Counted from the stretch's first letter, positions 5,507 to 64,000 are shown. The stretch: 64,000 bases of DNA from an uncultured Gemmatimonadota bacterium (GCA_951812955.1 OX638340.1:768001-832000); one strand, 5' to 3'. Translations and numbers: made by a program. Notes: a model not told the origin generated them from the sequence alone.

Positions 5507-8464
5507 TCAGGGACGCAATGTCAACCTGTCACGGGCGCGCTTCAGCCAGTCTACCCCGCCAGCAGGTTCCATCTCCGACAGGAAACGGGAAGGCTGCTTC
5601 CGCTGTGTCGTAATGCAGAGCCTTTCTTCGGCCCGTGTCAGGGCGACGTAGAAAACGCGCCGCTCCTCCTCGATCTGCTCTTCTGAACCCGTCATGCGTC
5701 GGTGGGGCAGTATATCCTCGACCACGTGGAAGAGTATGACGCCCTTGAATTCGTCTCCCTTGCTCCGGTGAATCGTCGTGACTGTAATCCGGTCTTCGGC
5801 AGGCGATGTGTCGCTATGGGTTGCCGCAGGCTGCTCGCCGTCGCCTGCCGTTCCTCCATCATGTGCGTGGCCATCGACCGTTGCTTCCGGTTGCGCACTA
5901 TCTCGGGCTGTATCTCCCCGATATGCACTTTGTTCACCCCTTTCCGCCTGAGACGTGTCATAGCGGACGTATTCTTCAGGATCCGCGTCCGAACCGGAAG
6001 CCATGGACCTGAGATAAGCGCGAACGAACGAGTCCGTAGTCGGATATCTTGCGGCCATCTGCCTTATCATACCGATCGACTCCTCACCAGAAGCCGTCAT
6101 CCGCTGCCTGCTCGTCTCGTCCCTTTGCAGGTAGTAGGCGGCGAGCCCCGACTGATCCATCAACGTATCGAGGAAATCGACCGGAGGCACGCCCGGGGAC
6201 CCGTATACTTTGCGCAGGTTTTCGATGCATCCACGGTATTCATCGAGTTTGCCGTTTACGTCGCCCGGCAGACTGTCTATCCGCTCGAGGAAACGGGGAC
6301 CTAGCACCGCCGCTTCGCGCAGTCGGGCATTGGAGAGCAGCCGAGAAGGGAAGGACAGGCTAATCGCGTATGAAAGGGGATCGGCCTTTTCACCGTGTGC
6401 GACGACGTCGACATAAGCCCCCACGGTCCTTCCCACGTGGGTCTGGTACAGGGCGCCTTCATCGAGTGGATGGAAGGGCAGGTCCGCTTCCTTTAGAGCG
6501 GATTGAAGGGGCGACGCGATGGACTGGACGCGGACCAGGACGGCCATGTCCCTGAAGGCGTACCCCAGCTTGCCCCACCGGTGTATCGTGCGTACCACGG
6601 CATCTGTTTCGGCTTCCATAGACGGACATTTGTGGACCCGGATTGTGTTTCTGTCCGAACCAACCTGTACCGGACGGATTGGCTTGTCGAAACGGTTCGC
6701 GTTATGGGAAATGACGCTGGCGGATTGGGTTACGATTTCCGGTCCGCATCGGTAATTCGCCCCCAGGGTGTGGACCGCAGCGCCGGGATACCACCGCTGA
6801 AACGAGCGGATATTCTCCGGATCCGCGCCGGTGAAGGTATTGATCATCTGGTCGTCATCGCCCACGGCAAACAGGTTGTTCAGCGGCAGGGAGAGCAGTC
6901 TCAGCATCAGGAACTGCACGGGGGTCAGGTCCTGGACCTCGTCCACCAGGACCGAATCGAAGCGATGCTGATATACGGTTCGCGCCCGGGGAGCTGAAAG
7001 AAGGATTTCCACGGCGCGGAATAACTGCTCGTCGAAGGTCATCAGGGCCTTGTCGCTCATGCTGCGTTCCACTTCTTCGCGCATTCTGAGGACCTGGCGC
7101 CTATCAAAGTCCTCAGTTCCCTCGCACGCGCCATATTCATCGATGGGCATCAACGTTCTCCGGTACCTGGAGACCGCCTCCTCGTACGCAATGACGAGAT
7201 GCTCAGGAAAGGGATAGGGGATGGCCGGGAAGTGCCGCTTGAAATCCTCCTTCAGCGCTTTTCTGTATATATCCGTCAACCCACCTGGCAGCGACTGTCC
7301 CGTAACGACGCCATAGTCCGCGTAGGGACTCTCCGGCGCCTGTCTGCAGATCTCGAAACCCAGGCTGTGCAGCGTCCGGATATGCACGTCCGGCAGTCCG
7401 GCATCCCCGTGTATACGCTCTGCCATCACCTCGCTCGCCGCCTTGTTGAAAACCACGCAGAGAATCCGGCCGGGGCGGACGCCGCCCCGCACGGCTTCAA
7501 CCACCCGCCGTGTCAGCACCCGCGTCTTTCCCGAGCCCGCGGGCGCCAGGGTGAGCACCACGCCGGCGCGAGGATCCAGACACCTGGCCTGTTCTCCGGC
7601 CAGACCGGGGTTCGGCTCAGGCATCGGAAGTACGGTTCCGCGGCCGTTGCCGGCCAGATTCGAACGGACCCGTTCTATACATCCGTCGAGATCGTGTACG
7701 ACCTCGCTCCCATTGAACCGGATCACATCCCGAATGTTATGTGCTCGAGTCAGTTCCTTGTCCCACGTGGTGCGGTCGGCGCGGACAAACTCCCTGCCGT
7801 CGACCTCCACGGCCACGAAACTGCCGCGTGAGTCGTCAACAAGCAGATCGACGAAACACGAGCCGAACGGGGCATGTAGCTCGTGGGACAAGCCGGCCCG
7901 GGCAAGCCCCTCGTGCATCTTCCTCTCGACGGGCGTCAACCAGGGTTCTGCCGATGAATTAAACGCATCGGGAGTCGGAAACACGGCACAGGTGCAAGCC
8001 AGGAGGAACCGCAATTGTTCTCTCAGGAGAGGTGACATCGTATCTTCGATCTCGTCCTTATCCGGCATGCCGACCGAACCGGTGTCCAGATCCTGAAGAT
8101 CCCAGGACGCGAACAGATACAGGGGTATGTATCGCCTGTACGCCGGAAGGACGAGGAGGTTTACCAGGCTGTTCATATGGGCCAAGTGCCTGGACGTCAA
8201 TTTGAGGATCAGGCGATCGGGTTCACCCCGCACTTCCTGGCCTTCCTCCGGATCGCTCATTACGGCCGTGCCCGGACGGGACTCGATTTCGGGCATGGAG
8301 TATTCACCAGGACACCGGAATACCGCGAGTCCGCGGCCCTTCTGTTCCCGCAGAGGTACTTCGCCCGGAACGAGCTGGACCGAACCAACGGCCGAACCGC
8401 AGACCGGATGTTGTTCCGCCGATCGGGTCTCTTCTGCCGATAGAACTTCGTCCGTAGATGGCAT
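5507..8464 (-). CDS. UvrD/Rep-like SF1 DNA helicase with an N-terminal DUF559 (Vsr-like, PD-(D/E)XK-fold) nuclease domain
   Basis: 985 aa. Helicase motifs: Walker A LAPAGSGKT, Walker B VLVDEVQD, motif III FAVGDDDQ, motif VI TIHRSKGDEFK / VALTRAEERL. Residues about 200-275, FVDLLVDDSRGSFVAVEVDGREF...RDVIRFNGSEVVHD, fit the DUF559 pattern. An acidic low-complexity insert precedes motif VI. The true start may lie downstream of 8464. Confidence 0.75.
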   Translation of the reverse strand: MPSTDEVLSAEETRSAEQHPVCGSAVGSVQLVPGEVPLREQKGRGLAVFRCPGEYSMPEIESRPGTAVMSDPEEGQEVRGEPDRLILKLTSRHLAHMNSLVNLLVLPAYRRYIPLYLFASWDLQDLDTGSVGMPDKDEIEDTMSPLLREQLRFLLACTCAVFPTPDAFNSSAEPWLTPVERKMHEGLARAGLSHELHAPFGSCFVDLLVDDSRGSFVAVEVDGREFVRADRTTWDKELTRAHNIRDVIRFNGSEVVHDLDGCIERVRSNLAGNGRGTVLPMPEPNPGLAGEQARCLDPRAGVVLTLAPAGSGKTRVLTRRVVEAVRGGVRPGRILCVVFNKAASEVMAERIHGDAGLPDVHIRTLHSLGFEICRQAPESPYADYGVVTGQSLPGGLTDIYRKALKEDFKRHFPAIPYPFPEHLVIAYEEAVSRYRRTLMPIDEYGACEGTEDFDRRQVLRMREEVERSMSDKALMTFDEQLFRAVEILLSAPRARTVYQHRFDSVLVDEVQDLTPVQFLMLRLLSLPLNNLFAVGDDDQMINTFTGADPENIRSFQRWYPGAAVHTLGANYRCGPEIVTQSASVISHNANRFDKPIRPVQVGSDRNTIRVHKCPSMEAETDAVVRTIHRWGKLGYAFRDMAVLVRVQSIASPLQSALKEADLPFHPLDEGALYQTHVGRTVGAYVDVVAHGEKADPLSYAISLSFPSRLLSNARLREAAVLGPRFLERIDSLPGDVNGKLDEYRGCIENLRKVYGSPGVPPVDFLDTLMDQSGLAAYYLQRDETSRQRMTASGEESIGMIRQMAARYPTTDSFVRAYLRSMASGSDADPEEYVRYDTSQAERGEQSAYRGDTARDSAQPEATVDGHAHDGGTAGDGEQPAATHSDTSPAEDRITVTTIHRSKGDEFKGVILFHVVEDILPHRRMTGSEEQIEEERRVFYVALTRAEERLCITTQRKQPSRFLSEMEPAGGVDWLKRARDRLTLRP

Positions 8465-50960: not shown

Positions 50961-53315
50961 CTATTTCAACATTTTCACGATTTCATCATGCCCGGCTTTC
51001 TGCGCACGCGCAAACGGCGTAGCCCATTCCGCGCCCCCGGCACTGGGATCCGCGCCTCGTCCAAGCAGGAACTCCACCATGTCCCGGTGCCCCCAGCGCG
51101 CAGCCCATCCAAGCGGCGTCGAGCACCACTCGTCATCGATGGCTTCAATGGCCGCGCCGCGATCCAGCAACAGGGCGGCCTTTTCCACGTCACCGATCGC
51201 GGCCAGCTTGTGCAGGTAGGTGACGCCGTGCCAGTTGGCGTTATTGGGATCAGCCCCGCTGTCAAAAAACAGGTTCAGCATGTCCAGGATATCGTCATGC
51301 GGTCGCAAGGCGGCTCCGTCCAGTTTCCAGCCCTTTCGCCGTCTGAAGGCGTATCCCATGTAGTTGTTGGCGTACCACGGACGGTTCAGTTCGGCGCCAG
51401 CGCGGATCAGCATTTCGATAATCTCCTTGCGGGCGAATCCGGCTGCCATGCAAAGCACCCCGTAGTCGCCTCCGTAATTGGCCAGTCCTGGGTCCGCGCC
51501 GAGCAGTTCTCCAACGACCGGAATGTTATCTCTTAAAACGTACAAACCAATATCTGCCGTTGCACCGTGCTGATAGAGCAGGTTGATCATTTCCTCATTT
51601 TTGTCCCGTCCCAGTGCCTGGGTCAATGGATTGCCGCTCGACTCCACCGGCGCATTCGGGTCGGCTCCGCGTTCCAGCAGGAGTTTTGCGGTCTCGAGGT
51701 GATCGCCGGCTACGGCTTCGTACAACGCGTGACCGCGAGGCGCGTTGTACTCTGGCGCGTTGGGATCGGCCCCTTGGTCCAGCAGAAGTCGAACGATATC
51801 GGTATACCCCTGCCCCGCCGCGCTGTAGAGGGGGGAGAACCCGCAGGAATCCTGGTCGCTGACCAGGTTGCTGTCCCGCGCGAGCAGTTCCCGTACTCGC
51901 CGTTCGTCCCCCAGGGCACACGCGACGGTCATGCTGTATTCCGCTCCCCTCGCGACCAGGTATCCAGTCAGCAGCGGATTGGTCCGCCCCTGGGTTTTGC
52001 GGGCTCGAAACACGGCCAGGTGAAGGGGTTTGCATCTATCCCACCTTACCGGATCCGGTTCGGCCCCCAAATCCAACAGCAGGGCCGTCATTCCCAGGTT
52101 GTATTCTTCCACGGCCACGTGCAGCGGCCGACTGCCGCGTTCGTCGCCGGCGTTAACCAATTCCGGCGAGGCATTAAAAAACGCACGGGCCTCTTCCAGA
52201 TCGCCCTCCCGAACGATCTCGCAGGCGCGCTGGCCTACAGGGGGCGCTTCGTACCTGTTTGAAATCGCCTCCGTCAACAGTCCGGCGATCTCGTCGTATC
52301 CGCGGTCCCGGGCCCGATCCAGCGGCGGCACGTGGTATTCGAGTCCCGATGCCGAGGCGGGATCCGCGCCATGGTCGAGCAACAGGCGTACTGCTTCCGC
52401 ATGCCCTTCCCTGACAGCGAAGTGGAGCGGCTGGTAGTAAGCCCAGTTGCAGTTCGCCAGCCCCGGCTCTTTAAGCAACAGATCCTGGATCCTGGCCAGG
52501 TCTCCTTCAACCGCGGCCAACAGCATGTCCCATACCCTATCTGGCTTGCCATCCATGAAAAGACCTTGCTCGTTCGTGAAATCGGGTCGAATCCATTTCA
52601 TAACTCGGTCTCCGAATGCATCGTCCGTCGACGGCGCGTAATGATTGAGGTCCTGGTAAAGGACGCGGAAAAGACGGGGTTTCAGTTTGTTGCGGGCTTC
52701 GTAGAGCCGCTTGCGTACCGTGCCCGCTTTCAAACCCATGAACCCCGCGATTTCAGTCGGGGAATAGTCTCCAATATACCTCAGCAGCGTTACTTCTCTT
52801 AACGTCTCCGGCAGTGCTTCGACCGCCTCGCGGACCTTGTCGCTCAGGTCTTCGCGCGTAACCCGGTCCAGGGGACTTTCCCCGGTGGCCTGTAGTTTGT
52901 CCTCCATGGGCACAAGTACGTGGTTCTGACTTCTCCGGTACCGATAGCACTGCCATTGCACGATGCGTCGCAGCCAGGCCGGAAACGCGTCCGGTTCACG
53001 CAGCGACCGGATGTTCTGCCACGCGGCGACAAACCCTTCCTGCGTGGCGTCCTCCGCCAGGTGGCGTTCACCCAGGAGGCTTAGCGCGTAACCGAAAGCC
53101 ATGTCCTGATAGTAAGCCACCAGCTTGCCGAAGGCGAATCCTCGATCTGAATCGGGTACCGTGGCGTCCGTGGAGGCCTGTATGCATTTTAAAATATCGT
53201 TGGTCATCGTCTGCCGTTGGGTTTCACCTGCAGCATCATTAATTAGTGAAATTCGTATTAAACTAGTACCATAAATCCTACCAGACGTTACAAATAGTTG
53301 ATAGATTGACACCAC
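50961..53315 (-). CDS. ECF-type sigma-70 factor fused to a roughly 550 aa ankyrin-repeat C-terminal extension
   Basis: Sigma region 2 is DSDRGFAFGKLVAYYQDMAFGYAL...EDATQEGFVAAWQNIRSL. Region 4 is LREVTLLRYIGDYSPTEIAGFMGLKAGTVRKRLYEARNKL. After that come at least 8 ankyrin repeats (PLHFAVREGHAEAVRLLLDHGADP, SPLYSAAGQGYTDIVRLLLDQGADPNA, TPLGWAARWGHRDMVEFLLGRGADP and others). The likely start is MTNDILK at 53207. Confidence 0.75.
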   Translation of the reverse strand: MVSIYQLFVTSGRIYGTSLIRISLINDAAGETQRQTMTNDILKCIQASTDATVPDSDRGFAFGKLVAYYQDMAFGYALSLLGERHLAEDATQEGFVAAWQNIRSLREPDAFPAWLRRIVQWQCYRYRRSQNHVLVPMEDKLQATGESPLDRVTREDLSDKVREAVEALPETLREVTLLRYIGDYSPTEIAGFMGLKAGTVRKRLYEARNKLKPRLFRVLYQDLNHYAPSTDDAFGDRVMKWIRPDFTNEQGLFMDGKPDRVWDMLLAAVEGDLARIQDLLLKEPGLANCNWAYYQPLHFAVREGHAEAVRLLLDHGADPASASGLEYHVPPLDRARDRGYDEIAGLLTEAISNRYEAPPVGQRACEIVREGDLEEARAFFNASPELVNAGDERGSRPLHVAVEEYNLGMTALLLDLGAEPDPVRWDRCKPLHLAVFRARKTQGRTNPLLTGYLVARGAEYSMTVACALGDERRVRELLARDSNLVSDQDSCGFSPLYSAAGQGYTDIVRLLLDQGADPNAPEYNAPRGHALYEAVAGDHLETAKLLLERGADPNAPVESSGNPLTQALGRDKNEEMINLLYQHGATADIGLYVLRDNIPVVGELLGADPGLANYGGDYGVLCMAAGFARKEIIEMLIRAGAELNRPWYANNYMGYAFRRRKGWKLDGAALRPHDDILDMLNLFFDSGADPNNANWHGVTYLHKLAAIGDVEKAALLLDRGAAIEAIDDEWCSTPLGWAARWGHRDMVEFLLGRGADPSAGGAEWATPFARAQKAGHDEIVKMLK

Positions 53316-53431: not shown

Positions 53432-53803
53432 ATGACCGACCTGAAAGTAAGCGCGCTCAGGGTTTTTGTCCCATCTAAGGACCACGAAACTTCGACCCGG
53501 TTCTACGAGGACCTCGGATTCGAAGCGGTCTGGTCCGGCCATGGGGTGACTGAGCTGCGGATTGAAGGATTCAGCTTTTTCCTTCAGAACTACTATCAGA
53601 AGGAATGGGCGGATAACTTCATGATACAGTTAAGGGTATCGGACCTGGATGCGTGGTGGCGGCACATCGTGGATAAGGATCTCGTGGCGCGATATGAGGG
53701 CGTCCGTGCCGCGGAGCCCAGGGTCCAGCCGTGGGGGCTTCGCGAGATCAACCTGATCGATCCCGCCGGCGTACTGTGGCACATCGCCGAAGAGCGGGAC
53801 TGA
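53432..53803 (+). CDS. VOC-family (glyoxalase/bleomycin-resistance-like) protein
   Basis: 123 aa with a single VOC module. Confidence 0.6.
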   Translation: MTDLKVSALRVFVPSKDHETSTRFYEDLGFEAVWSGHGVTELRIEGFSFFLQNYYQKEWADNFMIQLRVSDLDAWWRHIVDKDLVARYEGVRAAEPRVQPWGLREINLIDPAGVLWHIAEERD

Positions 53804-53822: not shown

Positions 53823-54737
53823 TCAGGTCCCCCCGGAGCCGTAATCCGCCAGGAGGTAATGCACGGCCAGGTTGGTGAAGTTGCCCCAACGGTCCGCGAA
53901 TTCCCGGATTCGCTCCTCGGAAACCCGCTCTCCGTTGAAGTAATGCCGCTCGATGGAGCGCTTAACCGCCAGGTCGCCCGCGGCGATGACGTTGCCCCTC
54001 CCCACGTAACGGGCGAGAAACCAGTCCGCCGTCCAGCGGCCGATTCCCACCAGGGCCGTCAGCGCCCGTTGCACCGAAGCGTCGTCCATTTCCGCCAGTC
54101 CATCCAGGTCGACTTCGCCCGACTGGATCGCCTGCGCCAGGTTGATGATATACCGTTCCTTCTGCCTGGAAAACTGCAATGGAACCAGATCGCCCGGGTT
54201 CAGTTGCGCCAGCCGCCCGGGGGTCGGGAAGGCATAGTGGGTTTCGCCACCGAAATCCACGGACTCTCCAAACTCGGCGACTAGCCTTCCCCGTACCGTG
54301 TAGGCGAACCCGAGGTTGATCTGCTGGGCCGTGATGGAGGAAACGAGCATCTCGAAGGGATCTACCTGCAGGTTGGGTCGCAGGCCATGGTGTTTGTCGA
54401 CCGAGGCGGACAGGACAGGGTCCTTTGACGCGAATGCGTAGAATTCCGGTAGCGGGAAGGAAAGGCCGAGGATCTTTCCGGCCGCCCCGAGCGCCGTGTC
54501 GATCACCGAGGAATCCGCCTGTACAGCCGCATCCCTGTGCGTCAGACGCATATTGATCCGGTCACCCGATCGATACAGCGCGATCAGGCAAGACCCCTTC
54601 CCGGTTTCTATCACCTTGCTGAAGACACCATCCCGGAACCGGTTGGCGACGTCGCTGCCGTACCGCCGGTACCGATCGAGGGTGGCCTCGAAGTCGAGGA
54701 CCGTATCTTCATCTGCTACAGATAACTCTCCCGGCAT
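53823..54737 (-). CDS. alkA: DNA-3-methyladenine glycosylase II (AlkA-like, HhH-GPD)
   Basis: There is an AlkA N-terminal domain. The helix-hairpin-helix is LVGIGRWTADWFL, and the catalytic Asp lies in AAGDLAVKR. Confidence 0.7.
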   Translation of the reverse strand: MPGELSVADEDTVLDFEATLDRYRRYGSDVANRFRDGVFSKVIETGKGSCLIALYRSGDRINMRLTHRDAAVQADSSVIDTALGAAGKILGLSFPLPEFYAFASKDPVLSASVDKHHGLRPNLQVDPFEMLVSSITAQQINLGFAYTVRGRLVAEFGESVDFGGETHYAFPTPGRLAQLNPGDLVPLQFSRQKERYIINLAQAIQSGEVDLDGLAEMDDASVQRALTALVGIGRWTADWFLARYVGRGNVIAAGDLAVKRSIERHYFNGERVSEERIREFADRWGNFTNLAVHYLLADYGSGGT

Positions 54738-54853
54738 GATGGTCTGGTATTTCCCGACTCAACGAAGTCGACGCGGCCGTGCACGAACCGCACGAATCGT
54801 GTAGTCCGTGCGGTCTGAGCGGTCCGCAAGCTGCCTGATAAGACTTAATTCGA

Positions 54854-55207
54854 TCAGGATTCGTTTGGCTTCCAAAGACCGACGAAGGTGCCCTCGATAT
54901 CCGTTATCCACGCGAAATGCCCCATGCCCGGAACTTCGGTCGGCGGAACGATGGACGATCCGCCCAGTTCCTCGGCCTTCGCGATATACGCATCGAGATC
55001 GTCGACCTGTACATAGATCAGCGTATAGTTGTGCGGTTCATGGCCGAGCGCTGAAATGTGTCCGCTGATCCCCGAATCATCATCCGGCAGGATCATGGAA
55101 GCATGTTCATGGGATTCCATGTTCCACCCGAACAAACTGCCGTAGAAGGCCTGTGTCTCTTCCCGGTTCTTACAGCCGATCTCGAAGTGTACGACGGGGT
55201 TTGGCAT
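54854..55207 (-). CDS. VOC-family (glyoxalase-like) protein
   Basis: 117 aa. The VOC N-terminal signature VVHFEIGCKNREETQAFYGSLFGW is present. Confidence 0.65.
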   Translation of the reverse strand: MPNPVVHFEIGCKNREETQAFYGSLFGWNMESHEHASMILPDDDSGISGHISALGHEPHNYTLIYVQVDDLDAYIAKAEELGGSSIVPPTEVPGMGHFAWITDIEGTFVGLWKPNES

Positions 55208-55260
55208 GTTGATTCTCCCTGGGTTGTGGCGCGGGTACCTAGCGCGAGATTGAATACAAC

Positions 55261-55310
55261 GGTCAATACGTGGTGCTCAGCTCAGGTCAACACGTGGTGC
55301 TCAGGTCAAT
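55261..55310. repeat. 20 bp direct repeat GGTCAAyACGTGGTGCTCAG x2, plus a third partial copy, immediately upstream of the VOC gene
   Basis: GGTCAATACGTGGTGCTCAG-ctca-GGTCAACACGTGGTGCTCAG-GTCAATGGTTGC. Each full copy contains an ACGTG core. Confidence 0.8.
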
Positions 55311-55322
55311 GGTTGCGAAATA

Positions 55323-55913
55323 TCATCTGTACTTGTCGTGCAGGCCCTGTCCGGCCAGGATCATGGGCAGAATCTTCTCCAGACGCTTTTTTCTGGTCTC
55401 CTCACGTTTGGCCTCGGCGACATGCTCGGCGAATGCTCTCCGCTTTCCAGGGGAGAACGCTTCGAAGCGTTCGCGGAGGTCTTCGTTTTCGGCCAGGACG
55501 ACGGCTAATTCGTCAGGAATCTGGAGAGGCTTGTTACGGTCCGCCTTGATCTCCCGGCCCTGGCGCTGGTTCTCGATAGACTCTTCTACGTAGGACCGAA
55601 GCAGCCCTTCGTCGATTTCGTCCTCGGTCCGGATTCTCCACTGTCTCAGGGCCTTTGTCCTGCCTTCCTGGGCATTGACCAGCACACCTCGTTCGTCACG
55701 CAGCAGCGCGCCCTGGTGGAACCATATGCTGACGAAGTCCTTGAAGGCGGCCAGACCGATCAGGTTTTTACCCTGAAAGGTATAGCACGGCGCGCCCCAC
55801 TTGACGGTTTCTACGAGTTCCGATTCGGCCACCACGGTGCGTAACCGGTCCAGGACTGAGCGCCATTCGGCGTGCGCCTCCAGGTACTCGGGTACGGTCT
55901 TGAATCGTTTCAA
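55323..55913 (-). CDS. YdeI/DUF1801-family protein
   Basis: The N-terminal DUF1801 region is VPEYLEAHAEWRSVLDRLR...VKWGAPCY. The C-terminal YdeI-like region is PDELAVVLAENEDLRERFEAFSPGKRRAF. Confidence 0.55.
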   Translation of the reverse strand: MKRFKTVPEYLEAHAEWRSVLDRLRTVVAESELVETVKWGAPCYTFQGKNLIGLAAFKDFVSIWFHQGALLRDERGVLVNAQEGRTKALRQWRIRTEDEIDEGLLRSYVEESIENQRQGREIKADRNKPLQIPDELAVVLAENEDLRERFEAFSPGKRRAFAEHVAEAKREETRKKRLEKILPMILAGQGLHDKYR

Positions 55914-55976
55914 ATGATGTCCTTTCGAAGACGGTCAGATTGTGGGCCGGTGCCGGTCCCAGTGCGTTGGGACAAT

Positions 55977-58488
55977 TTACCGGGGTCCTCGCACCGCCGT
56001 GGAATCTATCGCTTTAGAACCGGGCGTGGAGGCGCCGCCGAACAGACTGAGCCGGCCCGAGATCGCGGCTTCCACGTCCAGGTCGTAAACCTGGGAAATG
56101 GTGGTAACGATGGGACGGATCTGCTTTTCAATGTAATGACCGTAATCAACGGGCGCGTCAAGCTGGCCTTCCGGTTGAGGTCCGTCTCGCGTGATCACGT
56201 ACCGAATGACGCCGGTGGGATTGTCCATGAGTCTGGCGGCCTTTACGTGGGGCGGTACCGAGCGCGTGTAGAACTCCACCGGTTTTCGCAGGTTCTTTCT
56301 GTACACCAGCAGGTCGTCTTTTTGCCCGGACTGTACAGAGAGGACCCACCTGAAGATCTCGTCTTCGATCTCGACACCGGGCGATTCGTGAAATACCCGG
56401 TCGAGCAGGACGGCCTGCAGCTGGTGCGCCAGGTCGGTCCAGTCCCTTCGTACTGCTTCCATCCCGACGATTTCCACCCGGTCGCCATCGCGGTCGCGTC
56501 TGAGCCCCGCGTATCCCTTGGCCCGTCCCCGTTCGCTGTCCCCCCGCATGGATGGCAACAGAAACCGGTGGTAGTGCTTTTCCAGTTCCAGTTCGAGAAA
56601 AGAGGAAACGCCATACCGCTCCTTGACGTGCTCGGCAAGCCGTTCGTTGATACGATTGCACACCGCGCCACCGAGCCTAAGGGCTTCACCCGGATCGGCA
56701 AGGTCTGGCGCGTTCAGATCGACGAAAACCGAGTCGGTATCCCCATACAGCACCTTGTAGCCGTCTTTCTCCAGCTCGTCGCGACACCACCTTAGAATGT
56801 AGTGGCCGAACTCGGTGATTGCGCCGGCCAGCTGGGGCGCGGCGAATCGGCAGGAAGCCGACGCCAGCACGCCGTAGAACGAATTCATGACGATCTTGTA
56901 GGTGAAGGAAGCAAGGTCGTCGCCGCTGGCCTTGGCCTCCTCGCGGCTTTTAAAGAACTGCTCCAGCATGGAGGGCAGGATGCCGGGCGTTCGGGTGAAT
57001 CGCGCGCCGTTGGGCGCGGTAAGACAGTCATCTTCGTCCATCTCGTCCCGTGCCTCGATATGGGCCAGGGGATCGATGTTGAAGGTTCGTATGATGGACG
57101 GATAAAGGCTCTTGAAATCAAAGACGAATATGTTCCTGTACAGCCCTGCCTTCGACGGTATGATGAGCCCCCCCGGCGCGCCGGCGCCCGGGGTACGGTC
57201 CACGCCGGTTGTCGGCGCCACCATGCTGCGCTGATGCAGGGCGTTGATGTAGATATTGTCGAAGGCGGCCACGCTCACCCAGGCGCGTTCCAGTGGCAGG
57301 CCCGTGAGCAGTCCCCTGCGCAAGGTAAGGTTGATCAACCCTTCCGCTTCCAGGATATCCAGAACCAGCCGGGCATCCTCCAGGCAATAGGCGCAGAAGA
57401 GGTTACGGTCCTCGCGATAGACTTCCGTGATCTGCTCCGCCCTCGAATTCCCCGAATCCTCTTCGAGCAGCTTACCCCGGCCCAGGATGGCGTGGGCCAC
57501 CGTGCCCAGCCGGTAGTCATCGAACCTTTGCAGCGTGCCGCGCAGGAGATGCAGGGCATCCAGGATCTGGCGCCCGTGGATGACCATGGTGCTGCCGCCC
57601 CAAACTTCGCCGGACCGGTACCAGGACTGGTCCGCCGTCCGCCCGAGCTGAAAAGGCACGTTCAGGTCCCTGAAGCGCCGTTGCAGCACTTTCATATCGA
57701 AGTCGACCAGGTTCCATCCGGTGAGCAGGTCGGGATCCATTTCGAGCAACCTCGCCGACACACCGCGAAGCATCGACGCCTCGTCGGCCCAGCAGACCAG
57801 GGAGGCCGGGTCACCCGGAGCGGGTGCGCCCACCATGTGGATTTCTTCCGATTCGACGCCCGAGATCGTATCCGCGAGGATCAAGCCGACGGCGTAAATG
57901 GTGGTCGCTTTCGGATCCGTTTCTATGTCCAGAGCCAGTACGCGGAATGACGGCTCCCAGTAAGCAGGCTTCAGCGTAGGGTTGGCATACACTCGGTCGA
58001 CCCGGTCGCCGGGCGTCCAGGAACCGCTGATCCGGACGCCGCCGCGCAATCCAAGTCCGATCAGGAACTGTCTGCCGAAAGGCAGGTCGCCTTCGTAACT
58101 TCGCGTGCCCTGGGCCTCGAGCCCTTTGGCCAGGCCGCGCTGATCCCGTACGCGGTCGCACTGGACGCCGACCACCGGTTCGCCATCCATGGTTGTGTAT
58201 TCCGACGGGACTAACCGTGCCGTGACCTCGTTGGAACCGATCCGGTCGGATGCCGCCTGCGTTTCCGAGGTCCTGACGAAGAGTGCAGGAGAAACGCGAT
58301 CATCCGTAAACAGGAACGTATGACCACCCTGGAGCTTGCCGACGCCGCAGATGACGTCACGTCCGCGCTCCGTGCGATGAAAGACGTGGAGCAGGTAGCC
58401 TACGTCTCCTCCGCCATCCGGGGATTCGTGCTGATCCGCGGGGTCACTGGACGGAAGTGAGCGATCCCTGCCGGGGTTGTGTTCAGTT

Positions 58489-58502
<14 letters not shown>
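55977..58502 (-). CDS. polB: Family B DNA polymerase (DNA polymerase II)
   Basis: Exo I is LALDIETD. Motif A is [15 protein letters not shown], motif B is [13 protein letters not shown] and motif C is [11 protein letters not shown]. These are near-identical to the E. coli Pol II motifs. The start overlaps the uvrA stop by 14 nt. Confidence 0.9.
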
Positions 58503-61446
<2,944 letters not shown>

Positions 61447-61476
61447 CCAGGTGACTCCGTAATACGTCTGGCACCT

Positions 61477-62433
61477 TCAGGGCCGGTAATGGTAGAAAGC
61501 GAGTTCTTCGTACTCCACGTTACTTTTAAGCGTCAGTCTGTGCGGGCTCGACACCCGGCTGATGATCTCTTTGTCCGCCAGCCATTCGCATACCGTCGTC
61601 ACGCCCCGGAGATTCATCTGGTTATCGAAGTATGTTTCGATTTCCGTGACCGAGCGGACCGAACCCTCCTCCGCCAGGTAATCGAGTATGGGCTGGAACA
61701 TTACAGGAATGCGCTCTTCCAGGTACGCCTCGATGCGCGTGAGGGCGCCGGCGATCGCTTCGCTGGAAACAGGCTGGTCGATCAGGCGGGTGTATACGGC
61801 ATCGAAAAAGTCCGGATTCAACCGAAGCGCCTGTTGGATGACTTCACGGCTGGCCAGTTGACTGTCGAGAAACACCTCAATCTTTGCCAGTCCGTTCACA
61901 CAGTGCAATATGTAAAGGAAACTGTAGTGAAGATCCTCCTTCACGTGAAACCACTTCTCGGCTTTGTACAGGGTAGGTATCACGAAAGCGCCGGCATGCA
62001 TGAGCTGCACCTGCCGGTCTCTCTCCTTAAGTTCCCCGATACCCTCGTACAGTTCGCGAATGGTTTCGTCCCGGGTAAACAGCAGGCGGCTTTCCGCGAA
62101 CGAGGCATGCATGAAGGAGCTTTGCAGGCCCCCTTCTATCATTTTCCTGAACGCGGAACGGGGCTGCATGAACACGTGAATGTATACGTCGTGTTCCAGG
62201 AGTGCCGCGCCTTCCGAGACCTCGTCGTCGTCCCTGCCTTCCTTGCGAAAAAGGTCCTTGTCGTCTCGTGTTACGACGATCAGGTCGATATCGGATTTCT
62301 CCCAGACACGGTCGGCGGAAAGGCTACCGAACAGAATCGCCGCAAGCACGTGGCGGTCCTGTTTCGCCTTCGCGACAAAGGCGTCGAGAGCTGCCTCGAA
62401 CCGCTGCTGTATAGACTGTGATGTGTTTTCCAT
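61477..62433 (-). CDS. Pol-beta-superfamily nucleotidyltransferase with a C-terminal helical domain (ANT/KNTase-like layout)
   Basis: The NTase motif is LFGSLSADRVWEKSDIDLIVV (hG[GS]...DxD), followed by a roughly 200 aa helical domain. It ends 30 bp upstream of uvrA on the same strand. The track start is 62481; the start MENTSQ at 62433 is also possible. Confidence 0.6.
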   Translation of the reverse strand: MENTSQSIQQRFEAALDAFVAKAKQDRHVLAAILFGSLSADRVWEKSDIDLIVVTRDDKDLFRKEGRDDDEVSEGAALLEHDVYIHVFMQPRSAFRKMIEGGLQSSFMHASFAESRLLFTRDETIRELYEGIGELKERDRQVQLMHAGAFVIPTLYKAEKWFHVKEDLHYSFLYILHCVNGLAKIEVFLDSQLASREVIQQALRLNPDFFDAVYTRLIDQPVSSEAIAGALTRIEAYLEERIPVMFQPILDYLAEEGSVRSVTEIETYFDNQMNLRGVTTVCEWLADKEIISRVSSPHRLTLKSNVEYEELAFYHYRP

Positions 62434-62485
62434 CGAGGTATCCCGCCAGCCGAACAATTCTACCGCCCGGCCGTTTGACATGAGC

Positions 62486-62498
62486 GGTTAAATTAACC
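62486..62498. promoter_or_regulatory. Perfect palindrome GGTTAA-a-TTAACC upstream of the NTase-uvrA-polB gene string; candidate operator
   Basis: I read it directly from the sequence at 62486-62498, in the divergent region between the NTase gene and the globin-ankyrin gene. Confidence 0.3.
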
Positions 62499-62763
62499 AT
62501 TTGGACGTGACGGGTCAACGCGCAAATACCTTGCTGAACGCCCTGCACGCCTCGGTTGGAGGCATGTCGACCGGGTTCAGTCCGTATCGAATTTGACGCC
62601 CGGTTCCGGCCGCTGTGTGCTACCGCAAGGTGGTTTCAGACCCCGATATTCCTTGAATTGCTCCACTAGATCGATCAAAATGGGTATAGATTCCCGATCC
62701 GATTCCTTGGCCGTGTCATTTCCGGACAAGTAGCCTGAGGTACCGAACCGTGAGGATGGTTCC

Positions 62764-64000
62764 GTGACCTTCACGCCCAATGGACCGCATTCTTCCGCCG
62801 TGCATGCCGTTCTGCGCCATCGGGGCGGCCTCGCCCCGGAGCTGAGGCCCGATCCGACGCTCTTCCAACGAGTCGGGGGCCGATCCGTGATCGCGAAGGT
62901 AATCGACGGGCTGTACGACCGGATCGAAGTAGATTCCGACCTGCGTCCGATGTTTACCCGGACATTGGCTCCGGAACGTATGAAACAGAAAGCCTTCCTC
63001 GAAGAATGGATGGGAGAAGAACCGGGCTATACCCATCATCACGCCTACGGCGGAATCAAAAACCGCCACGGGCATATTCACATCACGCCGGAATCCGCGG
63101 AACGGTGGCTGGCGCACATGACCGATGCGTTGCTCGAGCATGTGAGGGATGACCGGCTCGTGAACGAAGCGCTGGCCACCCTCGGTCCCCTCGCCCGCGG
63201 ACTCGTCAACGAGAAGAAGCCACCAGAAAGCCCCGGACAACTCAGATGCTTCAGGGAAAAACGATGGAGACAGCCGGCCAAAATGGCGGCCAGGGGACAG
63301 ATGGAAGCACTCGAGAACTTTCTCGAGGAGGATTCCACGGTATTGGGCGATCCTCGTCACAGCGCAATCATCCTCGCGGAAGCGGCGCTGAGGGGCCATA
63401 CGCGGGTCGCGGCCCTGCTGCTTGACCGGGGGGTGGACGTAAACATACCATCTGCCCATTCGAGCGATATCATGATGACCGCCTATTGTGCCGCGCGAAG
63501 CAAGAGAAAAGACGAAACGGCCGGTTACCTGGCGGACCGCGGCGCGGTGTACGATGTCTTCAGCGCCTGTTTTCTCGGAGACATGGACCGGGTTGCCGTC
63601 CTGCTCGAAGCCCATCCCGGCCTGGTCAACGCAAGCGACCCCGCCTGCGACCTGTTGCCCGTGACCCCGTTGCACCATGCCGTGTACGGCGGCCATGAAC
63701 CCGTCGCCAGGTTCCTCTTTGAACGTGGCGCGGAGACCGGCGTGAACAGCACAGCCCTGTTGAAATACGCGGCGGAACGGGGACAGGCGAGCCTGGTCCG
63801 GTTGTTGCTGGCACACGGGGCGGATGCTTCGAGGATCGGTTGCGGCCGCTGGGTCGTCGATCCCGAGATCTCCGCGCTCCTGCTCGCCCGCGGCGCGGAC
63901 GTGAACTATCCCGATGGGAATTGGGTCTGGACGGCATGCACGGGAAACAACAGCCAGCGGGACGACCCCGCCTACGTGCAGGCACTGCTGGACAAGGGGG
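62764..64000 (+). CDS. Truncated hemoglobin (2/2 Hb, Bac_globin) fused to ankyrin repeats; C-terminus lies beyond the window end
   Basis: My own translation from GTG 62764 (GAGGA 7 nt upstream, in-frame TAG at 62731) gives ...LFQRVGGRSVIAKVIDGLYDRIEVDSDLRPMF...HAYGGIKNRHGHIHITPESAERWLAHMTDALLEH, which fits the trHb pattern. Then come the ankyrin repeats TPLHHAVYGGHEPVARFLFERGAET, LLLAHGADAS and LLLARGADVN. It is not in the ORF track because there is no in-window stop. Confidence 0.7.
   Translation, partial: MTFTPNGPHSSAVHAVLRHRGGLAPELRPDPTLFQRVGGRSVIAKVIDGLYDRIEVDSDLRPMFTRTLAPERMKQKAFLEEWMGEEPGYTHHHAYGGIKNRHGHIHITPESAERWLAHMTDALLEHVRDDRLVNEALATLGPLARGLVNEKKPPESPGQLRCFREKRWRQPAKMAARGQMEALENFLEEDSTVLGDPRHSAIILAEAALRGHTRVAALLLDRGVDVNIPSAHSSDIMMTAYCAARSKRKDETAGYLADRGAVYDVFSACFLGDMDRVAVLLEAHPGLVNASDPACDLLPVTPLHHAVYGGHEPVARFLFERGAETGVNSTALLKYAAERGQASLVRLLLAHGADASRIGCGRWVVDPEISALLLARGADVNYPDGNWVWTACTGNNSQRDDPAYVQALLDKG

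What the first reader, a model, noticed from the sequence alone, without database searches (positions are those of the whole stretch)
53823..62498. Co-directional DNA-damage locus: nucleotidyltransferase, uvrA, polB (overlapping), ydeI-like, VOC and alkA
All six genes are on the minus strand, and five of them sit within 63 bp or less of their neighbour. The sixth, alkA, follows a 116 bp gap. The uvrA stop overlaps the polB start by 14 nt, which indicates an operon and translational coupling of nucleotide-excision repair to translesion synthesis or gap filling. A Pol-beta-family NTase with a KNTase-like helical domain sits 30 bp upstream of uvrA. A perfect palindrome, GGTTAA-a-TTAACC, lies in its upstream region as a candidate operator. 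This linkage of a canonical class-I UvrA with Pol II and an unknown NTase is unusual. It is worth testing as one damage-inducible unit and for a role of the NTase.
Basis: partly seen in the sequence, partly recalled or inferred. Interest (0 to 1): 0.6.

Follow-up and report, generated by a model that had tools for sequence, protein, structure and literature searches.

The report
Nucleotidyltransferase paired with a divergent UvrA
The six-gene repair cluster is real, but its core is a two-gene pair that appears to be undescribed: a nucleotidyltransferase followed by a divergent lineage of the DNA-damage sensor UvrA, kept together in at least nine bacterial phyla, while the proposed palindromic operator is most likely just the promoter's -10 box.

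Summary
The six minus-strand genes and the 14-nt uvrA/polB overlap are confirmed. One spacing claim is wrong: the ydeI-VOC gap is 115 nt, not 63 or less.

The palindrome coincides with the -10 box of a TTGACC-17-TAATTT promoter that is conserved in relatives. Its symmetry is already broken in genomes whose proteins are about 97% identical, so an operator is not supported.

- **NTase-uvrA pair.** The NTase lies directly upstream of uvrA in 73 of 78 informative genomes from many phyla. A reverse scan starting from the UvrA motif found an NTase upstream in 89 of 101 metagenome contigs.
- **Not canonical UvrA.** These UvrAs have the class-I architecture but form a separate lineage. They carry YGE(D/E) instead of (R/K)KGE, have lost the UvrB/Mfd-contact arginine R216, and are 44-54% identical to canonical UvrAs, which are 60-67% identical to each other.
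- **The NTase.** It has a YgxA/KNTase fold with intact catalytic motifs. In some lineages it is fused to an ECF sigma factor or an AraC HTH, still upstream of uvrA, which suggests a sensing or regulatory role.
- **The other genes.** Pol II, YdeI, VOC and AlkA are additions specific to this clade.

Function is inferred, not shown. I found no prior description.

The parts
62513..62518 (-). Putative -35 hexamer TTGACC of the cluster promoter
   Evidence: TTGAC followed by a 17-nt spacer and an A/T-rich hexamer is conserved upstream of the NTase in L001-L013 and L018. Read directly from the sequence.
62486..62498 (.). It contains the putative -10 hexamer TAATTT (62490-62495).
   Evidence: Unique in the window. 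Relatives have GGTTAAATTAGCC, GTTTAATTTAACC, GTTATATAAAC or GTTATATAAAA at the same place. The A/T-rich hexamer and the spacing are kept, but the dyad symmetry is not.
61477..62433 (-). 318-aa three-domain nucleotidyltransferase (the ORF extends to 62481). Pol-beta NTase domain with G36-S37 and D48-x-D50 (62281-62328), KNTase/YgxA-like helical domain with the YKAEKW motif (61951-61968), and an acidic C-terminal winged helix with an invariant CEWLAD (61573-61590).
   Evidence: Pfam PF18765/PF01909. Alignment A1 gives the invariant residues. AF2 model, pLDDT 86. Foldseek: 3c18 TM 0.72/0.78, ANT(4') TM 0.53/0.66. Winged-helix net charge has median -6.
58489..61446 (-). 985-aa UvrA of the NTase-linked lineage. 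Both Walker A sites are intact (61246-61269, 59386-59409). YGED at 60877-60888 replaces the canonical (R/K)KGE. Q245 takes the place of E. coli R216 (within 60694-60720). The second ligand pair of Zn module 1 is CPDH instead of CxxC (60589-60600).
   Evidence: NF001503 1183 bits against a 1147 cutoff, where canonical C. thermocellum UvrA scores 1607. End-to-end alignment to class-I structures. Motif and residue tables. Identity matrix.
58489..58502 (-). 14-nt overlap of the uvrA stop (TGA) with the polB ATG
   Evidence: An overlap of -14 to -23 nt is conserved in 15 of 15 relatives with polB.
55977..58502 (-). 841-aa DNA polymerase II (family B) with ExoI-III and Pol motifs A, B and C intact
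   Evidence: NF004421 680 bits against 570. E. coli Pol II 1q8i 421 bits, full length. Motifs [32 protein letters not shown] and YGDTDS read.
55323..55913 (-). 196-aa DUF1801 + OmdA/YdeI-like protein (TTG start). Function unknown.
   Evidence: Pfam PF08818 and PF13376. No PDB sequence match.
55261..55308 (.). Two tandem 24-nt direct repeats in the 115-nt ydeI-VOC gap, each containing TTGACC on the coding strand. Possible internal promoter or regulator site.
   Evidence: Relatives carry different short tandem repeats in the same gap.
54854..55207 (-). 117-aa VOC (glyoxalase/bleomycin-resistance fold) protein
   Evidence: Pfam PF00903. The PDB relatives are uncharacterised VOC proteins.
53823..54737 (-). 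304-aa AlkA-type HhH-GPD DNA glycosylase. The GIG hairpin and the downstream Asp (AAGD) are present.
   Evidence: Pfam PF00730. Best PDB match is A. fulgidus AlkA 2jhj, E = 1e-24. It falls below the NCBIfam AlkA equivalog cutoff, 64 bits against 229. Sequence.

Best explanation
The locus is a co-directional, most likely co-transcribed genotoxic-stress cluster built around a conserved two-gene cassette.

Gene 1 is a dimer-type, catalytically intact nucleotidyltransferase with a YgxA/kanamycin-NTase fold and an acidic winged-helix tail. Gene 2 is a full-length UvrA from a distinct lineage. It keeps both ATPase sites, the insertion domain and a UvrB-binding-type domain, but it has rewritten the surface that canonical UvrA uses to dock UvrB and Mfd.

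Shown:
- The two genes are adjacent, on the same strand and often overlapping in at least nine phyla.
- The association holds in both directions.
- The two proteins' divergences track each other.

Inferred:
- The same NTase module is fused to an ECF sigma factor or to an AraC HTH in some lineages, still directly upstream of this UvrA. The NTase is therefore most likely the nucleotide-using sensor or regulatory partner that controls expression or activity of the variant UvrA. It is less likely to be a stand-alone antibiotic-resistance enzyme.
- In this sponge-associated Gemmatimonadota-like clade the cassette was extended by a translationally coupled Pol II, a YdeI-like protein, a VOC protein and an AlkA-type glycosylase.
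For: - **NTase to uvrA.** Adjacent in 73 of 78 informative GTDB species loci covering Gemmatimonadota, Planctomycetota, Armatimonadota, Acidobacteriota, Bacteroidota, Chloroflexota, Verrucomicrobiota and two MAGs titled Heliobacteriaceae. The distance from the NTase stop to the uvrA alignment start is mostly -77 to +80 nt. Outside the close clade nothing else is conserved around the pair.
- **Other NTase architectures.** Sigma-NTase then uvrA in L081, L083 and L042. AraC-NTase then uvrA in the cultured Clostridia Vallitalea okinawensis and Oceanirhabdus. A tandem-duplicated NTase followed by uvrA in L086.
- **Reverse test.** A motif scan for the variant UvrA in JGI metagenomes returned 120 UvrA loci. 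Of the 101 with at least 700 nt upstream, 89 carry the NTase upstream on the same strand.
- **Distinct UvrA lineage.** YGE(D/E) is present in 62 of 62. R216 is absent in 62 of 62. There are 43 diagnostic positions. Identity to canonical UvrAs is 44-54%, against 60-67% among canonical UvrAs. NF001503 scores are 1176-1247 against 1607 for a canonical protein.
- **Co-divergence.** NTase and UvrA pairwise identities correlate at r = 0.96.
- **Catalytic motifs.** They are intact in every architecture.
- **Promoter.**
- **Conserved uvrA/polB overlap.**
Against: - No expression or biochemical data exist, so the regulatory role rests only on domain fusions.
- The NTase's own winged helix is acidic, so the stand-alone form has no obvious DNA-binding surface.
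- No shared operator was seen across phyla.
- About 12% of variant UvrAs with enough upstream sequence lack a detectable NTase. One of them, L135, sits directly after uvrB, so the variant may still work with UvrB.
- Two of three sampled tandem-duplicated NTase genes (P0022 and P0362; P0362 was read on two contigs, L087 and L088) are not next to uvrA.
- The 115-nt and 116-nt gaps, and the TTGACC-bearing repeats before VOC, allow internal promoters.
- I could not test whether these genomes also carry a canonical uvrA.
- The residue numbering R216/E222 was mapped through an E. coli UvrA sequence recalled from memory. It was checked only for length and for K37, K646, R216 and E222.
Confidence: 0.6

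Rival explanations
1. This is one damage-inducible (SOS-like) operon controlled by a repressor bound to the GGTTAA-N-TTAACC palindrome. It couples canonical UvrABC excision repair to Pol II gap filling, with the NTase as an accessory of unknown role.
For: The palindrome is perfect, unique in the window and overlaps the -10 box, a common place for repressor operators. The uvrA/polB overlap is conserved. From my own knowledge, uvrA and polB are both SOS genes in E. coli.
Against: The symmetry is already broken in L001 and L002, whose proteins are 96-98% identical to the window's. More distant relatives keep only an A/T-rich hexamer at the -10 position. There is no second copy in 64 kb, even allowing one mismatch. 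The UvrA is not the canonical lineage. No cross-phylum operator was found.
Confidence: 0.12
2. A genotoxin-resistance cassette. The NTase is an ANT-like enzyme that nucleotidylates a DNA-binding natural product. The variant UvrA clears drug-DNA complexes, as class II UvrAs such as DrrC and Ecm16 do. VOC, AlkA and Pol II deal with the remaining adducts. The sigma and AraC fusions would use the same drug-binding module as a ligand sensor.
For: The closest characterised folds are the aminoglycoside and lincosamide NTases ANT(4'), ANT(6) and LinB. A KAEKW motif lies in the substrate-binding helix. Two VOC/bleomycin-binding-like genes and an AlkA-type glycosylase lie in the cluster. UvrA-like proteins act as drug-resistance factors independently of UvrB (PMC9328131). 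The host appears to be a sponge symbiont.
Against: The NTase shares 45-55% identity across phyla with many invariant residues. That argues for one conserved substrate rather than a lineage-specific drug. It matches no AMR NTase model. The VOC and AlkA linkage is confined to one clade. The cassette is absent from plasmid and phage collections. The variant UvrA keeps a conserved UvrB-binding-type domain, unlike class II.
Confidence: 0.2
3. The NTase acts directly on the repair machinery or on DNA. It might AMPylate the variant UvrA or a partner, or add nucleotides to DNA ends or excised oligonucleotides. The rewritten UvrB-docking surface of this UvrA might bind the NTase instead of, or as well as, UvrB.
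For: The gene pair is tightly coupled and co-diverging. The acidic winged helix looks like a protein-interaction module rather than a DNA reader. The UvrB-contact residues are replaced, yet the domain is conserved within the lineage. There is a weak fold resemblance to the oligo-dA synthase HalB.
Against: There is no direct evidence of an interaction. The HalB match is poor (TM 0.3-0.45). The sigma and AraC fusions are easier to explain by regulation. L135 places a variant UvrA next to uvrB.
Confidence: 0.08

Closest known systems
Class I (canonical) UvrA of the UvrABC excinuclease (E. coli, G. stearothermophilus 2r6f, C. thermocellum 9gxk)
   Same: Same length and domain order. Both ABC ATPase sites, a UvrB-binding-type domain (PF17760) and the insertion domain (PF17755) are present. 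It aligns end to end and passes the NCBIfam equivalog cutoff.
   Different: It is 44-54% identical to canonical UvrAs, against 60-67% among them. YGE(D/E) replaces (R/K)KGE. R216 is never Arg and E222 is mostly lost. The second Zn1 Cys pair reads C/S-x-x-H. There are 43 lineage-specific positions. It scores about 400 bits lower on NF001503. It is almost always preceded by an NTase gene and not by uvrB.
Class II UvrA paralogues (D. radiodurans UvrA2 2vf7, DrrC, Ecm16 7sh1)
   Same: A UvrA relative whose link to UvrB is in doubt and which is found in special gene contexts.
   Different: Class II proteins lack the UvrB-binding domain and the first zinc finger (PMC9328131). This protein keeps the domain. 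It scores only 616 and 478 bits against 2vf7 and 7sh1, over the C-terminal part.
YgxA-like nucleotidyltransferase (PDB 3c18, Exiguobacterium; Pfam PF22339) and kanamycin NTase ANT(4')
   Same: The same NTase plus helical substrate-binding architecture. 3c18 matches over the whole length, including the C-terminal domain (TM 0.72/0.78); ANT(4') gives TM 0.53/0.66. GS and DxD motifs are present, and a K-x-E-K-W motif lies in the region where I recall KNTase having E145...K149-W.
   Different: Only 11-16% identity. No hit to AMR NTase models. 3c18/YgxA is itself uncharacterised. No uvrA linkage or transcription-factor fusions have been described for either, as far as I could find.
Rob-type AraC regulators and ECF sigma factors with C-terminal sensory extensions
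   Same: In the fused forms, a DNA-binding or promoter-recognition module is joined to a ligand-binding-type module directly upstream of the controlled gene.
   Different: The attached module is a catalytically intact NTase. I found no precedent for that. In the window the NTase is not fused to anything.
SOS-regulated uvrA and polB of E. coli, and the NER plus Pol II route for interstrand cross-links (my own knowledge, not checked here)
   Same: UvrA-type damage recognition and Pol II synthesis are functionally linked.
   Different: Here the two genes overlap in one operon, the UvrA is a different lineage, and no LexA-type operator is evident.

Membership tests
Canonical class I UvrA | Two ABC ATPase modules with Walker A lysines (E. 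coli K37, K646) | tested here: met
   Lys at both positions in 62 of 62 NTase-linked UvrAs, including the window. Motifs GLSGSGKS and GASGSGKS.
Canonical class I UvrA | UvrB-binding domain and insertion (DNA-binding) domain present | tested here: met
   PF17760 at residues 160-266 and PF17755 at 322-424.
Canonical class I UvrA | UvrB/Mfd contact residues R216 and E222 (the double alanine mutant disrupts the interaction surface, PMC3025350) | tested here: not met
   The window has Q245 at the R216 position and keeps E251 at the E222 position. R216 is absent in 62 of 62 and E222 is retained in 12 of 62. The numbering was mapped through a recalled E. coli sequence.
Canonical class I UvrA | Conserved basic (R/K)KGE motif at the start of the UvrB-binding domain | tested here: not met
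   YGED in the window and Y-G-E in 62 of 62. Canonical E. coli, C. thermocellum and G. stearothermophilus have RKGE or KKGT.
Canonical class I UvrA | Four-cysteine zinc module 1 | tested here: inconclusive
   The first pair, CPYC, is present. The second pair is CPDH in the window: H in 58 of 62 at the C256 position and S in 23 of 62 at the C253 position.
Canonical class I UvrA | Score above the curated equivalog cutoffs | tested here: met
   NF001503 1183 bits against 1147 (marginal; a canonical protein scores 1607). TIGR00630 1157 against 730.
Canonical class I UvrA | Works with UvrB and UvrC in excision repair | not testable with these tools
   Context hints only. uvrB is adjacent in 1 of about 200 loci, L135.
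Class II UvrA | Lacks the UvrB-binding domain and the first zinc finger | tested here: not met
   The domain is present. 2vf7 aligns only from residue 294 onward.
Aminoglycoside/lincosamide NTases (ANT(4'), ANT(6), ANT(9), Lnu) | Pol-beta NTase GS...DxD catalytic motif plus a helical substrate-binding domain | tested here: met
   G36-S37, D48-x-D50 and E80 are invariant. Fold match to ANT(4'), TM 0.53/0.66.
Aminoglycoside/lincosamide NTases (ANT(4'), ANT(6), ANT(9), Lnu) | Sequence membership in curated resistance-gene models | tested here: not met
   The only NCBIfam hit is MntA at 22.8 bits against a cutoff of 60. Identity to ANT structures is 11-16%.
YgxA-like NTase (PF22339 / PDB 3c18) | Whole-length fold match and a PF22339 substrate-binding domain | tested here: inconclusive
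   Foldseek E = 4e-13, TM 0.72/0.78. Profile against the 3c18 sequence gives E = 1e-3. PF22339 appears only as weak hits in homologues and not in the window protein at default thresholds.
CD-NTase / cGAS-like signalling NTases | cGAS/CdnE fold | tested here: not met
   CdnE and cGAS matches have probability 0.2-0.28 and TM 0.17-0.18. PADLOC gives only generic minimal-NTase hits.
E. coli-type DNA polymerase II | Equivalog score plus the Exo I-III and Pol A, B and C motifs | tested here: met
   NF004421 680 bits against 570. 1q8i 421 bits, full length. Motifs read.
AlkA (3-methyladenine DNA glycosylase II) | HhH-GPD domain with a catalytic Asp; equivalog score | tested here: inconclusive
   PF00730 58.6 bits. 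The GIG hairpin and an Asp 22 residues later are present. Best PDB match is A. fulgidus AlkA, E = 1e-24. NF007641 gives 64 bits against 229, so specificity is not assigned.

The most novel reading that the evidence does not exclude
The NTase and the YGED-type UvrA form a previously unrecognised, widespread damage- or genotoxin-response module. A nucleotide-transferring sensor controls, or physically partners with, a UvrA lineage whose UvrB/Mfd-docking surface has been repurposed. That would be a second UvrA-based pathway running alongside classical UvrABC repair, currently hidden because annotation pipelines name the protein plain 'UvrA'.
Probability: 0.3. Interest if true: 0.85.

Novelty: new variant of a known kind. 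Interest (0 to 1): 0.68.

Why it matters
Bacterial nucleotide excision repair is treated as a closed set: UvrA, B, C and D plus Mfd. A conserved partner gene for a distinct full-length UvrA lineage in soil, marine and sponge bacteria from at least nine phyla would add either a new regulatory layer or a new UvrA-dependent pathway.

It would also mean that many genes annotated 'excinuclease ABC subunit UvrA' are not the canonical protein.

The AraC-NTase-UvrA version occurs in cultured Clostridia (Vallitalea okinawensis, Oceanirhabdus), so the question can be tested directly by genetics and biochemistry.

Tried and rejected
- **Operator reading of the palindrome.** Rejected from the comparison with relatives and from its uniqueness in the window.
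- **A shared operator or LexA-like box upstream of the NTase across phyla.** None seen by inspection. Several lineages simply show TTGAC-17-TAxxxT promoters.
- **A second UvrA in the window.** The other 985-aa ORF, 5507-8464, is a UvrD-like helicase.
- **Known RNA elements in 53-64 kb.** None.
- **Terminator and promoter consensus scan.** No enrichment over shuffles, and it misses the TAATTT box because of its own matching rules.
- **Defence-system models.** Only generic hits: the minimal NTase PDC-S09, and the mad3/mad8 ABC half.
- **Plasmid or phage carriage of the NTase.** None.
- **The winged helix as the DNA-binding output.** Disfavoured because it is acidic.
- **Literature.** Ten searches found no description of the pair.
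- **Not available.** Marszalkowska 2013, on UvrA classes, and Pakotiprapha 2009 are not held in the library. The afdb50 fold library was not available.
- **uvrB or a second uvrA near the cassette in about 200 loci.** Only L135 has uvrB.
Full report
**Observation**

All six ORFs are on the minus strand at the stated coordinates.
- Pfam and NCBIfam identify an HhH-GPD/AlkA-like glycosylase, a VOC protein and a DUF1801+OmdA (YdeI-like) protein.
- The fourth gene is a family-B Pol II (NF004421, 680 bits against a 570 cutoff).
- The fifth is a UvrA (NF001503, 1183 bits against 1147).
- The sixth is a Pol-beta-type NTase.

The uvrA stop and polB start overlap by 14 nt, and the NTase-uvrA gap is 30 nt. 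The remaining gaps are 63, 115 and 116 nt, so 'five within 63 bp or less' is not correct. The palindrome GGTTAAATTAACC (62486-62498) is present and unique in the window even with one mismatch.

Most homologues are 318 aa, and the first 16 codons of the long ORF are not conserved. The NTase therefore probably starts at 62433.

**The palindrome**

On the coding strand the upstream region reads TTGACC (62518-62513), a 17-nt spacer, then TAATTT (62495-62490). The palindrome is this hexamer plus its flanks.

The same TTGAC-17 nt-A/T hexamer layout is conserved in L001-L013 and L018. The dyad is not conserved:
- L001 (NTase 97% identical) has GGTTAAATTAGCC.
- L002 has GTTTAATTTAACC.
- More distant relatives have GTTATATAAAC or GTTATATAAAA.

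This is what a -10 box looks like, not a conserved operator. Operators can overlap -10 boxes, so the idea is not excluded, but nothing supports it.

**The NTase-uvrA pair**

A scan of one genome per GTDB species with an NTase alignment returned 80 loci.
- The NTase is followed on the same strand by uvrA in 73 of the 78 loci that have enough downstream sequence. These cover Gemmatimonadota, Planctomycetota, Armatimonadota, Acidobacteriota, Bacteroidota, Chloroflexota, Verrucomicrobiota and two MAGs titled Heliobacteriaceae.
- The two genes usually lie within a few tens of nt of each other or overlap.
- Clustering of the neighbouring ORFs shows nothing else conserved outside the window's own clade.
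- Pol II, YdeI, VOC, AlkA, the second VOC and the sigma-ankyrin gene are syntenic only in L001-L018. These are MAGs labelled Gemmatimonadota or Latescibacterota, several with sponge-derived isolate names.
- Within that clade the uvrA/polB overlap (-14, -20 or -23 nt, ATG start) is kept in all 15 genomes with polB. This is good comparative support for co-translation.

**The NTase**

The AF2 model (pLDDT 86) has three domains: an NTase domain, a helical bundle and a C-terminal winged helix.
- The best structural match is the uncharacterised YgxA-like protein 3c18 over the whole length (TM 0.72/0.78). ANT(4') kanamycin NTase follows. HalB, ANT(6), LinB and CD-NTases are weak or absent.
- It matches no resistance-gene model and gives only generic minimal-NTase hits in PADLOC.
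- G36-S37, D48-x-D50, E80 and a KAEKW motif are invariant, so it is probably catalytically active.
- The winged helix is consistently acidic (median net charge -6). It is more likely a protein-interaction surface than a DNA reader.

**Domain fusions**

The module occurs in three other architectures:
- Fused to an ECF sigma factor, in a Chloroflexota MAG (L081), in an untitled Logan contig (L083) and in Chthonomonadaceae (L042).
- Fused to an N-terminal AraC HTH, in cultured Clostridia.
- As a tandem duplicate whose second catalytic motif is degenerate.

The sigma fusions (L081, L083, L042) and the AraC fusions (L084 Vallitalea okinawensis, L085 Oceanirhabdus) all sit directly upstream of uvrA. 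One duplicate (L086) does as well, with a toxin-antitoxin pair inserted in between. Two other duplicates do not.

Two independent fusions to transcription modules are the main reason for preferring a sensing or regulatory role.

**The UvrA is not the canonical lineage**

I aligned 62 NTase-linked UvrAs with C. thermocellum UvrA (9gxk; species from PMC12796330) and G. stearothermophilus UvrA (2r6f).
- All linked proteins have APVF-x-(I/V)-YGE(D/E) where canonical proteins have APVV-RGRKGE.
- 43 positions are diagnostic.
- The position of E. coli R216 is never Arg, and E222 is kept in only 12 of 62. The R216A/E222A double mutant disrupts the UvrB/Mfd interaction surface (PMC3025350).
- The second Cys pair of Zn module 1 is mostly x-x-H.

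Identity values point the same way:

| Comparison | Identity |
|---|---|
| Canonical pairs (E. coli, C. thermocellum, G. stearothermophilus) | 60-67% |
| Each linked UvrA against those canonical proteins | 44-54% |
| Median of a linked UvrA against the other linked UvrAs, non-Clostridial queries | about 58-66% |
| Median of the Clostridial linked UvrAs against the other linked UvrAs | about 50% |
| Clostridial linked UvrAs against canonical Clostridial UvrA (9gxk) | 50% |

On NF001503 the canonical protein scores 1607 bits and the linked ones 1176-1247, just above the 1147 cutoff. This explains why they are annotated as ordinary UvrA.

**Reverse test**

A degenerate DNA pattern for the lineage motif was scanned over JGI metagenomes. 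It returned 120 contigs, all encoding UvrA. Of the 101 with at least 700 nt upstream, 89 have the NTase upstream on the same strand.

Among the exceptions, L135 has uvrB immediately upstream of a variant UvrA. No other locus among about 200 has uvrB or a second uvrA nearby. NTase and UvrA pairwise identities correlate at r = 0.96.

**Interpretation**

Shown: a conserved, bidirectionally associated gene pair and a distinct UvrA lineage.

Inferred: the NTase senses or regulates.

Open:
- Whether this UvrA is an extra paralogue. This is likely in Clostridia, where canonical uvrBA is the rule, but that rests on my own knowledge.
- Alternatively, it may be the only UvrA in some phyla.
- Whether it still uses UvrB. 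L135 argues that it can.

The clade-specific additions (Pol II, AlkA-type glycosylase, two VOC proteins) fit a bulky-adduct, alkylation or genotoxin theme.

The ydeI-VOC gap carries two 24-nt repeats with TTGACC, so an internal promoter for VOC and alkA cannot be excluded.

**Literature and other searches**

Ten full-text searches found no description of an NTase-uvrA pair or of this UvrA lineage. The paper that defines the UvrA classes IIa and IIb is not held in the library, so overlap with an existing class name cannot be excluded. The NTase is not found on plasmids or phages, and Rfam finds nothing in the region.

Noticed in passing
window 50961-53315 (-): An ECF sigma factor fused to about 550 aa of ankyrin repeats. 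Its sigma part is 41% identical (E = 2e-42) to the sigma part of the sigma-NTase fusions, including the linker motif PSxD(D/E)xF. It is syntenic downstream of the cluster in L001-L018.
   Followed up: partly
window 53432-53803 (+): A second VOC protein with weak similarity to bleomycin-binding proteins (BLMA model, 33 bits). It is convergent with alkA across a 19-nt gap.
   Followed up: partly
window 55261-55308; same gaps in L001, L002, L009, L010, L013, L014; upstream of the NTase in L014-L016: Short tandem direct repeats (17-24 nt) occupy the intergenic gaps of this cluster. The repeat sequences differ between related genomes, but repeats recur in the same positions. Their purpose is unknown.
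   Followed up: partly
window 62716-63816 (-): A 366-aa ORF with no Pfam, NCBIfam or PADLOC hit. It is conserved directly upstream of the NTase promoter in L001-L018.
   Followed up: no
window 5507-8464 (-): A 985-aa UvrD/Rep-type helicase with an N-terminal REase_MTES_1575-like region. It has the same length as the UvrA but is unrelated to it.
   Followed up: partly
L006-L013, L018 (about 100 nt between the promoter and the NTase ATG): A conserved 5' leader containing a GCGCAT...ATGCGC inverted repeat. It is absent from the window's shorter leader.
   Followed up: no
L021 10928-12049; L086 7914-8584; L088 2810-5884: Other genes are inserted directly after the NTase gene. In L021 (an AAA/SMC-like ATPase) and L086 (a PhdYeFM-PIN toxin-antitoxin pair) they lie between the NTase and uvrA. 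In L088 a Type ISP restriction enzyme follows the NTase and no uvrA was found on the contig.
   Followed up: no
L135 823-1986 (-) and 4-753 (-): A metagenome contig on which uvrB is immediately followed by a YGEE-type (variant) uvrA with no NTase in between. It is the only such case among about 200 loci.
   Followed up: partly
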